Virus record (IMG/VR): IMGVR_UViG_3300023223_000630 | Span: 1 to 64,000 of that record | Length of the DNA: 64,000 bases | DNA from: a virus | Reading direction: 5' to 3' (one strand) | Part shown: positions 42,009 through 60,505 of the stretch, piece after piece | Numbering within the stretch: the first letter of the stretch is position 1 | How the letters are laid out: each line of letters begins with the position of its first letter | Made by a program: the position numbers and the translations under genes | Notes under the pieces: generated by a model | Seen by the model: the letters and a program-made list of their open reading frames with translations, nothing else | Databases searched by the model: none | What the model was told of the DNA's origin: nothing

Positions 42009-42089
42009 AAGCACGGGCTCCGTCTAATCTATGGGTGATGATTTCCGGAGTTATAAACCCAAAAAATGGGTTGTACCCTGGAAATTTAA

Positions 42090-42163
42090 TGGACTCGGTG
42101 GGATTTGAACCCACGACTAAGGTATGTTCAGTACCCTGCTCTACCACACTAAACTACGAGCCC
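42090..42163 (-). tRNA. tRNA-Phe(GAA)-like
   Basis: Minus-strand read: GGGCTCG TA GTTT-AGTGTGGTA-GAGC A GGGTA-CTGAACA-TACCT TAGTC GTGGG-TTCAAAT-CCCAC CGAGTCC A. All four stems pair. An AT-rich TATA-like tract lies upstream (42165-42195) and a T6 run downstream. No encoded CCA. C at position 37 is unusual. Confidence 0.8.
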
Positions 42164-42195
42164 ACGAACAAATAAAAATATTATAATTAAAAATG

Positions 42196-46859: not shown

Positions 46860-47120
46860 ATGGGGAATATTAGCAAGTGGAAGGATATAGTCTGGAACCA
46901 AAATAGCAATTCATTTGAAGAAATGAAGATTGATTATTATGGTAGATGGATGAAGTATTCCGAATTTGGAAACAGACCTCATGATTATTCCTGGGAATTA
47001 GACCATATTGTAGGAAAAAATGAAGGAGGAGCAGACCATCCAAGTAATTTAAGAGCACTCAACTGGAGATCAAATGTAGCAAGAAACGGGAAAAAATACA
47101 AACAAAACGAAGTAGGCTAA
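46860..47120 (+). CDS. small HNH nuclease
   Basis: WELDHIVGKNEGGADHPSNLRALNWRSNVARNGK. Confidence 0.65.
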   Translation: MGNISKWKDIVWNQNSNSFEEMKIDYYGRWMKYSEFGNRPHDYSWELDHIVGKNEGGADHPSNLRALNWRSNVARNGKKYKQNEVG

Positions 47121-47281
47121 ATCATTATTCTCATTAAATGATAATTATAAATATTGTATTACACTATACATAGCGGTGTGTTATGTGTTGGTTATCAATG
47201 TTTGACATATAATTTCTAGTATAAGGCCAAGTGGGGATTCACTAGAAGCACCATTTTTATATTCAAATTATAAAAATCACA

Positions 47282-47366
47282 ATTGTTGTCACATAGACTG
47301 GTAATTGTGCTAACCTTATGAGTTAGAATCTCCACAGATTCGTGGGTTCAAATCCCTCCAACAACG
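47282..47366 (+). tRNA. atypical tRNA-like gene, anticodon UAU, long extra arm
   Basis: ATTGTTG TC ACAT-AGACTGGTAA-TTGT G CTAAC-CTTATGA-GTTAG AATCT-CCAC-AGATT-C GTGGG-TTCAAAT-CCCTC CAACAAC G. There is an A1:C72 mismatch and a T:T mismatch in the T stem. The T arm is one base different from the tRNA at 42090. A TATA-like AAATTATAAAAA lies just upstream. Confidence 0.45.
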
Positions 47367-47440: not shown

Positions 47441-47614
47441 ATGGCTAAAAAACCCACAATGATAACGGTTCATCCTGCAGTTATAGAATGGATTGATGAA
47501 AAAGTAAATGAAAGAATGTTTTCTAGCAGATCACACGCTTTTGAAAGAAGTGTTTTATTAATGATGAGTGTAGAAGACAGACGTGAAGTAATCAAAAAGA
47601 TGAGTAAACGTTAA
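47441..47614 (+). CDS. ribbon-helix-helix (CopG/Arc-like) protein
   Basis: MAKKPTMITVHPAVIEWIDEKVNERMFSSRSHAFERSVLLM; TTTAAATC box 23-30 nt upstream of ATG 47441. Confidence 0.55.
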   Translation: MAKKPTMITVHPAVIEWIDEKVNERMFSSRSHAFERSVLLMMSVEDRREVIKKMSKR

Positions 47615-51278: not shown

Positions 51279-52294
51279 AACATATTACCAAACACTTTAC
51301 GAATTTAAGCGTTTAGTGTGTAACTTACCCATAAGTATAGACATAAAAGAATTATAATACTATTATCATGGGTCATGAAATTAAGCAGATATACAATACA
51401 TTTTGTGTATCATGCGGATCAACTCATACAACCAAGAACGGGAAGAGGAAAATTAAACATGGTGTAACACAAAGGTACAAGTGTTTAGAGTGTGGTACAA
51501 GATTCACCTGGAGAATAGGTTTTGAGAAAAAGCATTACAAAGGTGAGTTAATCACACTAGCAATACAAATGTATTATGCAGGACAATCATTAAGTAAGGT
51601 AGCACATACATTAAAGATGCTTGGTATCTCACCAACAAAGCAAACCATATGGAACTGGATTAACCAATACTCTTCTCGGATCTCCACTTTTTTAGAAACT
51701 GTTCCACCTGATGTCGGGGAGTCATGGAGGAGTGATGAAATGTATACCCATGTTAAAGGTAAAATTTCATATTTATTCATGATGATGGATGACGATACTA
51801 GATACATTCTAAGTCAAGAGTTAGCCAAAACAAAAGAGTATCATGATGCGTATAATTTGTTTAATAATGGTAGAATATTAGCTGGTAAAAAACCAAGTAT
51901 AGTAACTACTGACGGACTAAAGGCATACAAGAAAGCGTTTAACAGAGTATTTTATTCAAACACATTACCCCGAACTTATCATAATAGTATCATTAAACTC
52001 ACCGGGGATGCAAGTAATAACCTAATGGAAAGATTAAACTGTACCGTAAGAGATAGAGAAAAAACTTTTAGAGGTTTACAAAGTTATGATACTCCTATGT
52101 TTAAGGGGTATGTTATCTATTTTAATCATATTAGACCACATACCGCACTTAATGGAATGACACCAGGAGAAAAAGCTAATATCCATATTGAGGGACAAAA
52201 TAAATGGTTTACCCTCATCCAAAATTCAACACTTCAACAGATTTATAAATATGCTATATAAGTATATATTCCGAATTTTCCATATAAAGTATTT
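51279..52294 (+). mobile_element. IS6-family insertion sequence (limits only bounded by neighbouring genes)
   Basis: Contains the transposase gene. I could not find terminal inverted repeats or a clean target duplication. Confidence 0.4.
51368..52261 (+). CDS. IS6-family (IS240-type) DDE transposase with N-terminal zinc finger
   Basis: CVSCGS...RYKCLECGTRF; WRSDEMYTHVKGK.SYLFMMMD, IVTTDGLKAYKKAF, NNLMERLNCTVRDREKTFRG, YFNHIRPHTALNGMTPGE. Confidence 0.75.
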   Translation: MGHEIKQIYNTFCVSCGSTHTTKNGKRKIKHGVTQRYKCLECGTRFTWRIGFEKKHYKGELITLAIQMYYAGQSLSKVAHTLKMLGISPTKQTIWNWINQYSSRISTFLETVPPDVGESWRSDEMYTHVKGKISYLFMMMDDDTRYILSQELAKTKEYHDAYNLFNNGRILAGKKPSIVTTDGLKAYKKAFNRVFYSNTLPRTYHNSIIKLTGDASNNLMERLNCTVRDREKTFRGLQSYDTPMFKGYVIYFNHIRPHTALNGMTPGEKANIHIEGQNKWFTLIQNSTLQQIYKYAI

Positions 52295-60094: not shown

Positions 60095-60505
60095 ATGAAG
60101 GTAAAGATAGTTAATGCCACTATAGATGATACTAGTGATTTTTTTGATAGAGAGAACAAGTGCTTTGGGTATAAGGTTAGATTTGACAAAGAAAAATTGT
60201 ACTCCCGGCTGGACACGTTAATTATGCATGGATATTCTTACAAGGCTGTACATAAGAAAAAGATTGTTGGTCATGTTACATCCTTCATTACACGTACCGG
60301 GGATCTGTTTGTTGATTATTTGTGTGTTGATGTAAAGCGTAAGGGTATAGGTACTTTGTTGTTAAAAAAATTAAGAACTGAAAATCCCCGGAAAACAATA
60401 TATTTATTTACTGATCATACAAATATATCATCAATGTTATTCTATTTAAAGTCCGGATTTGTATTTGATAAAAGAGAAAAAGACAGGATTTACTTTGTGC
60501 TGTGA
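60095..60505 (+). CDS. GNAT-family N-acetyltransferase
   Basis: 136 aa; LCVDVKRKGIGTLLLKKL (R/Q-x-x-G-x-G/A acetyl-CoA motif). Confidence 0.7.
   Translation: MKVKIVNATIDDTSDFFDRENKCFGYKVRFDKEKLYSRLDTLIMHGYSYKAVHKKKIVGHVTSFITRTGDLFVDYLCVDVKRKGIGTLLLKKLRTENPRKTIYLFTDHTNISSMLFYLKSGFVFDKREKDRIYFVL

What the first reader, a model, noticed from the sequence alone, without database searches (positions are those of the whole stretch)
47282..47366. tRNA-like gene with UAU anticodon, long extra arm and two stem mismatches
Seen: 85 nt fold by hand into a cloverleaf.
- Acceptor stem ATTGTTG/CAACAAC, with A1 opposite C72.
- D arm ACAT-[AGACTGGTAA]-TTGT.
- Anticodon arm CTAAC-[CTTATGA]-GTTAG, which pairs perfectly.
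- A 15-nt extra arm AATCT-CCAC-AGATT-C.
- T arm GTGGG-TTCAAAT-CCCTC, with one T:T mismatch.

The T arm differs by a single base from that of the tRNA at 42090-42163, and a TATA-like tract lies just upstream.

Established: in Archaea AUA is normally read by tRNA-Ile2 (CAU anticodon modified to agmatidine by TiaS). Genuine UAU isoacceptors are rare, and long extra arms are confined to Leu and Ser tRNAs.

Inference: this is either a decaying tRNA duplicate or a virus-specific decoder for AUA. ATA is visibly a very common Ile codon in these ORFs, so such a tRNA would free the virus from host agmatidine capacity. The class-II-like arm on an Ile-type anticodon would be unusual either way.
Basis: partly seen in the sequence, partly recalled or inferred. 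Interest (0 to 1): 0.6.

Follow-up and report, generated by a model that had tools for sequence, protein, structure and literature searches.

The report
Odd long-armed AUA tRNA, archaeal virus
A 65-kb tailed virus of (probably) ammonia-oxidising archaea carries a real but one-of-a-kind tRNA gene that pairs an isoleucine (AUA) anticodon with a serine/leucine-style body, so which amino acid it carries, if any, cannot be read from the sequence.

Summary
ARAGORN and Rfam RF00005 (42.2 bits, cut-off 29) both call an 85-nt tRNA at 47282-47366(+) with anticodon UAU and a 15-nt extra arm.

- **Structure:** all 12 invariant or tertiary positions are intact. Three stem pairs are non-standard, not two: A1·C72, U13·U22 and U50·U64.
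- **Promoter:** a TATA-like word lies at -28 to -19, and the virus's tRNA-Phe has the same word upstream.
- **Identity signals conflict:** the anticodon says Ile. G73, the long arm, C72, C11:G24 and G4:C69 fit Ser. G37 and the arm size fit Leu.
- **Comparison with other viral tRNAs:** in my sample, 60 of 64 tRNA-Ile and 108 of 108 tRNA-Leu have A73.
- **Codon use:** ATA is 52% of Ile codons and still aligns with Ile in relatives' proteins. Relatives with no tRNA genes use ATA as much or more.
- **Conservation:** 0 of 52 related virus records carry any tRNA, and no homologue turned up in viral, genome or metagenome collections. It could not be tested.

My reading: AUA decoder 0.35, relic 0.30, Ser/Leu mis-sense tRNA 0.20. 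Other agents in this scan noted long-armed UAU tRNAs in phages.

The parts
47282..47366 (+). 85-nt class-II-shaped tRNA gene with anticodon UAU; no CCA encoded (GTTT follows). Anticodon 47317-47319, G37 at 47320, extra arm 47327-47341, discriminator G73 at 47366. Non-standard pairs: A1(47282)·C72(47365), U13(47294)·U22(47305), U50(47343)·U64(47357).
   Evidence: ARAGORN; Rfam RF00005 42.2 bits, full length 1-71; sequence; parsing
47252..47263 (+). Putative archaeal promoter: CATTTTTATATT. The TATA-like core is at -28 to -19, which would place the transcription start at or very near tRNA position 1. The same CATTTTTA word lies at -32 to -25 of the tRNA-Phe gene.
   Evidence: function inferred from position only
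42090..42163 (-). Companion viral tRNA-Phe(GAA), the only other tRNA gene of the genome. It shares UCGUGGGUUCAAAUCCC with the UAU tRNA.
   Evidence: ARAGORN; Rfam 56.6 bits; sequence
46860..47120 (+). 86-aa HNH endonuclease gene, 161 bp upstream on the same strand. Flanking gene only: possibly part of a mobile cassette, not shown.
   Evidence: Pfam PF01844, E = 1.1e-4, 22.6 bits against cut-off 21.4; ORF
47443..47614 (+). Small downstream ORF of 57-62 aa with no family match. No oligo-T terminator separates it from the tRNA, so co-transcription is possible.

Best explanation
This is a genuine, independently transcribed tRNA gene acquired by this virus lineage alone. It is probably started at or next to position 1 from its own TATA promoter, and CCA is added afterwards.

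It folds into an L-shape with an extra arm and presents the anticodon UAU to AUA. AUA is the virus's commonest isoleucine codon and its fifth most used codon overall.

The most likely role is a supplementary or back-up AUA reader. It would work beside the host's single agmatidine-dependent tRNA-Ile2, as tRNA-Ile(UAU) genes do in many phages.

Shown: the gene, its fold, its anticodon, its position, its uniqueness and the codon statistics.

Inferred: expression, CCA addition, and above all charging with isoleucine. Charging is the weak step, because the body lacks A73 and A37 and carries serine-type signals.
For: Two independent tRNA finders agree on the coordinates.

All 12 conserved or tertiary positions are present: U8, A14, G18, G19, A21, U33, G53, U54, U55, C56, A58 and C61. 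So are G15:C48 and G26:A44.

23 of 26 stem pairs are Watson-Crick and 14 of them are A-U. The gene is 41% G+C, against 50% for the virus's tRNA-Phe. I infer that pairing was kept while the sequence drifted towards viral composition.

The TATA-like word sits at the right distance (chance about 0.8%) and the tRNA-Phe gene has the same word. The gene lies in a 322-bp intergenic gap.

ATA is 52% of Ile codons, 43.7 per 1000. ATA positions in the MCM gene align with I > V > L in relatives, so ATA still means Ile.

Phages often encode tRNA-Ile(UAU), including 27 long-armed ones in one sample. G37 beside UAU also occurs in three giant-virus tRNA-Ile genes.

Host archaea almost never have a UAU tRNA (2 of 167 genomes, PMC6000648). 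Such a tRNA would therefore bypass the agmatidine step.
Against: G73 is nearly absent from viral tRNA-Ile: A73 in 60 of 64, G in 1. A73 is a strong isoleucine determinant (PMC9976931).

A37, the t6A site, is replaced by G. A37 follows U36 in 378 of 387 sampled viral tRNAs.

None of the E. coli minor Ile pairs (C4-G69, U12-A23, C29-G41) is present.

The one tested precedent is the class-II nev-tRNA-Ile(UAU) of nematodes. IleRS did not charge it, even though it has A73 (PMC3333845).

A1·C72 and U50·U64 lie in the acceptor and T stems that elongation factors bind (my own knowledge, not tested here).

Relatives without any tRNA use ATA as much or more, so no special demand is visible.

The Rfam score is below that of other long-armed tRNAs, and the cloverleaf is not the minimum-energy fold.

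No homologue exists, so selection on the fold cannot be shown.
Confidence: 0.35

Rival explanations
1. Inert or decaying relic. A class-II tRNA (Leu-UAA/UAG or Ser-UGA type) was captured in the variable right arm of the genome. It has since lost its original anticodon and is accumulating lesions. It is not charged efficiently and does nothing for the virus.
For: There are three non-standard pairs, two of them at functionally sensitive places (1:72 and 50:64).

The Rfam score of 42.2 bits lies below the 49-59 bits of well-formed long-armed tRNAs. The cloverleaf is 6 kcal/mol worse than the minimum-energy fold.

The identity signals contradict each other.

The companion tRNA-Phe is also odd: C37, G3·U70 and U13·G22. 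That hints at relaxed constraint on both tRNA genes.

The gene sits in an arm with no homologues in relatives, and 0 of 52 related records keep any tRNA.

The anticodon loop CUUAUGA is one base from the CUUAAGA loop of Leu(UAA) tRNAs seen.
Against: All 12 invariant positions and 23 of 26 pairs are intact despite a strongly AT-shifted sequence. Free drift would hit them first.

The anticodon and extra-arm stems are perfect. A promoter word is retained.

A Ser(UGA) origin needs two of about five changes to fall in the three anticodon bases. My estimate of that probability under neutrality is about 0.014.
Confidence: 0.3
2. Mis-sense ('chimeric') tRNA. The body is recognised by an anticodon-blind synthetase. 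That is most likely SerRS (G73 plus long arm), less likely LeuRS. AUA would then occasionally be read as Ser or Leu, like the nematode nev-tRNAs that put Leu at AUA and GGG.
For: Five of the seven bacterial Ser determinants listed in PMC9976931 are present: G73, C72, R4-Y69, C11-G24 and a large variable region.

G73 is a strong Ser determinant for bacterial-type and archaeal SerRS, and an anti-determinant for archaeal LeuRS.

In my sample G73 occurs in 48 of 59 tRNA-Ser, 0 of 108 tRNA-Leu and 1 of 64 tRNA-Ile.

The arm length of 15 nt, its 4-5 bp stem and G37 fit Leu better. Leu variable regions have a median of 14 nt and G37 in 31 of 75. Ser has a median of 18 nt and G37 in 0 of 57.

Precedents: nev-tRNA-Ile(UAU) is charged with Leu and not Ile (PMC3333845). 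Another viral contig carries a textbook Ser-like body with UAU and G73 (L154).
Against: ATA makes up 4.4% of the virus's own codons and still stands at Ile positions. Efficient Ile-to-Ser reading would damage the virus's own proteins, and the virus does not avoid ATA.

G1-C72, G2-C71 and G30-C40 are missing.

My comparison samples are from viruses of bacteria and eukaryotes, not archaea. Archaeal tRNA-Ser may well have G37.

Profile HMMs of Leu, Ser, Tyr and long-armed Ile tRNAs did not recognise the 5' 60 nt at all.
Confidence: 0.2
3. Counter-defence or non-translational tRNA-shaped RNA. It would be a variant AUA reader that host tRNA-cutting nucleases cannot recognise, or a decoy that soaks them up. 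This is what has been shown for some phage tRNAs.
For: Phage tRNAs with altered anticodon loops escape anticodon nucleases (PMC10264068). Phage tRNAs also overcome retron and other defences (PMC11555353) (titles and abstracts only).

Both tRNAs of this virus are unusual at position 37, next to the anticodon: G37 here and C37 in tRNA-Phe.

The virus is the only one of 53 related records with tRNA genes, as expected of an accessory arms-race trait.
Against: No tRNA-targeting defence is known for these hosts. No nuclease, repair or inhibitor gene was recognised near the tRNA. This rival rests on analogy only.
Confidence: 0.12
4. Not a tRNA gene at all. It would be a chance cloverleaf, part of a 5' UTR, an attachment-site fragment, or a class-I tRNA whose 'extra arm' is an intron.
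For: The region is AT-rich and the fold is thermodynamically weak (z = -1.0). There is no conservation data.
Against: E = 1.4e-5 for the whole window, with a full-length model match. A second program agrees. Every invariant position is present.

The gene is complete rather than a 3' fragment. The genome has terminal repeats, and no integrase turned up among the ORFs I scanned; the only match of that kind was a DDE transposase.

The arm is an uninterrupted 5-bp hairpin with no bulge-helix-bulge motif for the archaeal splicing endonuclease (sequence).
Confidence: 0.03

Closest known systems
Nematode nev-tRNA-Ile(UAU) (Hamashima et al. 2012, PMC3333845)
   Same: Class-II cloverleaf with a 15-16-nt extra arm and the anticodon UAU, which belongs to neither Leu nor Ser. 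It probably derives from a class-II tRNA by an anticodon change. The anticodon loop here is one base from the Leu(UAA) loop.
   Different: All 115 nev-tRNAs keep A73 and are charged by LeuRS. This one has G73, which blocks archaeal LeuRS. The nematode genes are nuclear and conserved across species. This is a single gene in one archaeal virus, and its charging is untested.
Long-armed tRNA-Ile(UAU) of bacteriophages (seen; earlier scan note e1-5380994; I found no paper describing them)
   Same: Virus-encoded, anticodon UAU, and a long extra arm on a tRNA that reads AUA.
   Different: Those tRNAs have A37 (required by the search pattern) and A73 in 23 of 27. The commonest form, about 90 nt, also has an Ile-like class-I D arm, an encoded CCA and an arm loop that reads CAGAUAA. 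This one has G37, G73, a 4-nt arm loop CCAC and no CCA. Its 5' part shows no similarity to their profile.
Archaeal tRNA-Ile2 (anticodon CAU modified to agmatidine by TiaS)
   Same: It reads the same codon, AUA, in the presumed host.
   Different: A different anticodon (CAU against UAU), a class-I body, A73 and A37. The viral gene would not need TiaS.
Cellular tRNA-Ile(UAU) of Nanoarchaeum equitans, Korarchaeum cryptofilum (PMC6000648) and Mycoplasma mobile (PMC3575796)
   Same: An unmodified-C-independent UAU anticodon for AUA in prokaryotes.
   Different: From my own knowledge, those are ordinary class-I Ile tRNAs. The Korarchaeum one is close to its own tRNA-Ile(GAU). None is reported with a long arm or G73.
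Class-II tRNA-Ser (and L154:278-365, a Ser-like viral tRNA with UAU)
   Same: Long extra arm, G73, C72, C11:G24, purine4:pyrimidine69, and only three Watson-Crick pairs in the D stem, the fourth (13:22) being U·U.
   Different: The anticodon is not a Ser anticodon. G1-C72, G2-C71 and G30-C40 are absent. The arm is short for Ser (15 nt against a median of 18). G37 was not seen in 57 sampled non-archaeal tRNA-Ser.

Membership tests
tRNA (Rfam RF00005) | Covariance-model score at or above the gathering threshold over the full model | tested here: met
   42.2 bits against 29, model positions 1-71 of 71; ARAGORN agrees
tRNA (Rfam RF00005) | Invariant and tertiary nucleotides: U8, A14, G18, G19, A21, U33, G53, T54, Psi55, C56, A58, C61, and purine15:pyrimidine48 | tested here: met
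   All present in the sequence
Canonical tRNA-Ile (any domain) | Discriminator A73 | tested here: not met
   G at 47366. A73 in 60 of 64 sampled viral tRNA-Ile. Listed as a strong determinant in PMC9976931.
Canonical tRNA-Ile (any domain) | A37 (t6A) 3' of the anticodon | tested here: not met
   G at 47320. A37 follows U36 in 378 of 387 sampled viral tRNAs. Three giant-virus tRNA-Ile(UAU) also have G37.
Canonical tRNA-Ile (any domain) | Anticodon that reads an Ile codon (A35, U36) | tested here: met
   UAU at 47317-47319
Canonical tRNA-Ile (any domain) | Charged by IleRS | not testable with these tools
   Needs an aminoacylation assay
Archaeal tRNA-Ile2 (agmatidine type) | Anticodon CAU as substrate for TiaS | tested here: not met
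   The anticodon is UAU
Class-II tRNA-Ser | Long variable arm plus G73 | tested here: met
   15-nt arm with a 5-bp stem; G73
Class-II tRNA-Ser | Ser anticodon (NGA or GCU) | tested here: not met
   UAU
Class-II tRNA-Ser | G1-C72, G2-C71 and G30-C40 | tested here: not met
   A1·C72, U2-A71 and A30-U40. The determinant list is from PMC9976931.
Class-II tRNA-Leu | Discriminator A73 | tested here: not met
   G73. A73 in 108 of 108 sampled tRNA-Leu. G73 is an anti-determinant for Haloferax LeuRS.
Class-II tRNA-Leu | Long arm of Leu size, and G37 | tested here: met
   15 nt against a Leu median of 14; G37 in 31 of 75 Leu. The comparison set is not archaeal.
nev-tRNA-like chimeric tRNAs | Class-II body with an anticodon of another amino acid | tested here: met
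   The comparison is with PMC3333845.
nev-tRNA-like chimeric tRNAs | A73 and leucylation by LeuRS | tested here: not met
   G73. Charging itself is not testable here.
Phage long-armed tRNA-Ile(UAU) | A37, A73, and an Ile-like D arm or a GAU-like arm loop | tested here: not met
   G37, G73 and arm loop CCAC

The most novel reading that the evidence does not exclude
The virus encodes a working tRNA that an anticodon-blind synthetase (SerRS, via G73 and the long arm) charges with serine and that reads AUA. That would be a natural, virus-borne mis-sense tRNA. It would deliberately blur one of the most used codons of an AT-rich archaeal host, or of the virus itself. The companion tRNA-Phe, with its G3·U70 alanine mark, would hint at a second such case.
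Probability: 0.12. Interest if true: 0.85.

Novelty: new variant of a known kind. Interest (0 to 1): 0.45.

Why it matters
Archaea almost never own a UAU tRNA, and they depend on one agmatidine-modified tRNA for AUA. AUA is a very common codon in AT-rich ammonia oxidisers and in their viruses.

A virus gene that supplies a UAU anticodon would be the first hint that archaeal viruses tinker with this bottleneck. I also know of no report of tRNA genes in this family of marine archaeal tailed viruses, though I did not search for one.

If the tRNA is instead charged by SerRS or LeuRS, it would be a natural mis-sense tRNA outside nematodes.

Either answer is directly testable with a transcript and three recombinant synthetases.

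As it stands, this is a single gene in a single metagenomic genome with no conservation data, so the case is suggestive and not strong.

Tried and rejected
**Homologue searches, all empty**
- The exact anticodon arm in IMG/VR.
- Extra arm plus T arm in one genome for each of 185,579 species.
- Anticodon arm plus T arm in JGI metagenomes.
- D-loop, anticodon loop and T loop with free stems in JGI metagenomes.
- blastn against 50,697 phage records, which gave only chance hits of about 30 nt.
- A G37 long-arm UAU pattern in IMG/VR gave no true analogue.

**Relatives.** I found 52 related IMG/VR records through alignments of the MCM-primase and the large terminase. None has a tRNA. The closest known relative is a 24.6-kb contig with 94% MCM identity.

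**Host genome.** I could not obtain a handle. So there is no comparison with host Leu, Ser or Ile tRNAs or with host codon use.

The host assignment rests on three things:
- one RefSeq MCM-primase homologue labelled Nitrosopumilus sp.;
- the archaeal replication genes;
- earlier scan notes.

**Isotype by profile HMMs.** Models for Leu, Ser, Tyr and long-armed Ile separate well in cross-validation. They score this tRNA at only 6-15 bits, all from the T arm. With the T arm removed there is no hit at all. Pairwise alignment gave only weak Ser-first hits.

**Rejected ideas**
- Codon reassignment of AUA: ATA columns look like Ile.
- An intron in the extra arm: there is no bulge-helix-bulge motif.
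- An attachment-site fragment: the gene is complete.
- A viral aaRS or tRNA-modifying enzyme nearby: Pfam found none in the 20 right-arm ORFs scanned.
- A transposase-based host assignment: no named homologues.

Full report
**What is there.** The window is almost all of a complete 64,926-bp virus record with direct terminal repeats. It encodes a portal, a T4-type large terminase, a tail tube protein and a fused primase-MCM helicase. These mark a head-tailed virus of the archaeal kind.

One RefSeq homologue of the helicase is labelled Nitrosopumilus sp., on a virus-sized 68-kb contig. Earlier scan notes also assign the virus to marine ammonia-oxidising archaea. I could not test the host independently.

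ARAGORN finds two tRNA genes: tRNA-Phe(GAA) at 42089-42164(-) and tRNA-Ile(tat) at 47282-47366(+). Rfam RF00005 finds the same two, at 56.6 and 42.2 bits against a gathering score of 29.

**The fold.** It has a 7-bp acceptor stem, a 4-position D stem with a 10-nt loop, a perfect 5-bp anticodon stem with loop CUUAUGA, a 15-nt extra arm (5-bp stem, loop CCAC) and a T arm with loop UUCAAAU.

- Three pairs are non-standard: A1·C72, U13·U22 and U50·U64.
- Every invariant or tertiary nucleotide is in place.
- 23 of 26 pairs are Watson-Crick, and 14 of them are A-U.
- The gene is 41% G+C, against 50% for the tRNA-Phe.

I read this as a tRNA that has kept its pairing while drifting towards the virus's base composition. 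That is an inference, because no ancestor is available.

Two things count against robustness. The score is lower than that of seven well-formed long-armed tRNAs from three comparison loci (49-59 bits). The cloverleaf evaluates at -11.0 kcal/mol, against -17.3 for the minimum-energy fold.

**Surroundings.** The gene lies in a 322-bp gap. Upstream is an 86-aa HNH endonuclease gene (Pfam PF01844). Downstream is a small ORF with no family match.

TTTTTATATT lies at -28 to -19. Such words occur about once per kb per strand, so one at this distance has a chance of about 0.8%. The tRNA-Phe gene has the same CATTTTTA word at -32 to -25. That spacing would start transcription at or next to position 1.

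No oligo-T terminator follows this gene, whereas one follows tRNA-Phe. No CCA is encoded.

The whole arm from about 40 kb onwards has no homologue in the 10-kb flanks of relatives' MCM genes.

**Relatives and conservation.** I collected 52 related IMG/VR records with alignments of the MCM-primase (25 sequences) and the terminase (22 sequences). Identity to the window was 26-58%, and four records were at least 88% complete. None holds a tRNA.

Searches for the tRNA itself found nothing in IMG/VR, in one genome for each of 185,579 species, in JGI metagenomes or in GenBank phages. Some of those patterns left all stems free.

The gene is a singleton.

**Codon use.** In 69 ORFs, ATA is 52% of Ile codons and 43.7 per 1000 codons, the fifth most used codon.

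ATA positions in the MCM gene align with I 0.35, V 0.16 and L 0.10 in relatives. That resembles ATT and ATC and differs from Leu or Ser codons, so AUA is not reassigned.

Relatives without tRNA genes use ATA at 48-61% of Ile, 31-54 per 1000. High ATA use is therefore a family trait served by the host. It is not something this tRNA explains.

**Which amino acid?** The signals conflict.

- *Anticodon:* UAU (A35, U36) says Ile.
- *Discriminator:* it is G73. In about 960 unique viral tRNAs gathered here, A73 holds in 108 of 108 Leu, 28 of 28 Tyr and 60 of 64 Ile. G73 holds in 48 of 59 Ser.
- *Published identity rules (PMC9976931):* A73 is listed for Ile and for archaeal Leu. G73 is a strong Ser determinant for bacterial-type and archaeal SerRS. 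G73 is an anti-determinant for Haloferax LeuRS.
- *Bacterial Ser set:* five of the seven listed elements are present (G73, C72, R4-Y69, C11-G24, long arm). G2-C71 and G30-C40 are not.
- *Position 37:* it is G. A37 follows U36 in 378 of 387 sampled tRNAs, though three giant-virus tRNA-Ile(UAU) also have G37.
- *Arm size:* G37 and the 15-nt arm fit Leu (median 14 nt, G37 in 31 of 75) better than Ser (median 18 nt, G37 in 0 of 57).
- *Anticodon loop:* it is one base from the CUUAAGA loop of Leu(UAA) tRNAs that share this T arm.

These comparison sets come from viruses of bacteria and eukaryotes, not archaea. Profile HMMs built from them do not recognise the 5' 60 nt of this tRNA at all. The ancestry therefore stays open.

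**Precedents.**
- Nematode nev-tRNA-Ile(UAU) is a class-II tRNA with this anticodon. LeuRS charges it and IleRS does not, and all 115 nev-tRNAs keep A73 (PMC3333845).
That scan required A37, and 23 of the 27 have A73. The commonest form has an arm loop that reads CAGAUAA. Another agent of this scan had noted that family.
- One viral contig (L154) has a textbook Ser-like body with UAU and G73.
- Cellular archaea almost never have tRNA-UAU: 2 of 167 genomes (PMC6000648).

**Verdict.** I rank the readings as follows:
- a supplementary AUA reader, 0.35;
- an inert relic of a captured class-II tRNA, 0.30;
- a Ser- or Leu-charged mis-sense tRNA of the nev type, 0.20;
- a counter-defence or decoy RNA, 0.12 (analogy with PMC10264068 and PMC11555353);
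- not a tRNA, 0.03.

It belongs to no known isotype family by the tests I could run. It is best described as a new variant among the odd tRNAs that viruses carry.

Noticed in passing
window 42090-42163 (-): The companion tRNA-Phe(GAA) has C at position 37 (42126). A pyrimidine at 37 occurs in only 19 of 962 sampled viral tRNAs. It also has a G3·U70 wobble (the universal alanine identity pair), U11·G24 and U13·G22. A T-run terminator follows it.
   Followed up: partly
L154:278-365 (IMGVR_UViG_3300022756_000002, 44 kb): A textbook class-II Ser-like tRNA (3-bp D stem, 6-bp extra-arm stem, G73) with anticodon UAU and A37, scoring 56.5 bits on RF00005. It is a second viral case of an Ile anticodon on a Ser-type body.
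   Followed up: partly
L112, L117, L125, L132, L150, L156, L160, L165, L171, L175, L178, L185, L187, L188: A family of about 90-nt phage tRNA-Ile(UAU) genes. They have an encoded CCA, A73, A37, and a long extra arm whose 7-nt loop reads CAGAUAA or UAGAUAA. The loop looks like the GAU anticodon loop of the major tRNA-Ile.
   Followed up: partly
L245:675-747, L293:186-261, L304:7167-7245: Three giant-virus class-I tRNA-Ile(UAU) genes with G rather than A at position 37.
   Followed up: no
window 46860-47120 (+): An 86-aa HNH endonuclease gene lies 161 bp upstream of the tRNA. Homing endonucleases often sit in phage tRNA regions, so the two may have moved together.
   Followed up: no
window 40000-64000: None of the 17 ORFs tested between 39.9 and 52.9 kb has a homologue in the 10-kb MCM-downstream flanks of 12 relatives. 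Both tRNAs lie in this lineage-specific arm, which also holds a DDE transposase (51368-52261) and a GNAT acetyltransferase (60095-60505).
   Followed up: partly
L042:4380-4470 (-): A phage tRNA-like gene with a CTTATGA loop followed by about 14 extra bases inside the anticodon loop. ARAGORN does not call it. It sits in a cluster with a 4-base-anticodon tRNA and a 92-nt tRNA-Gly(ACC).
   Followed up: no
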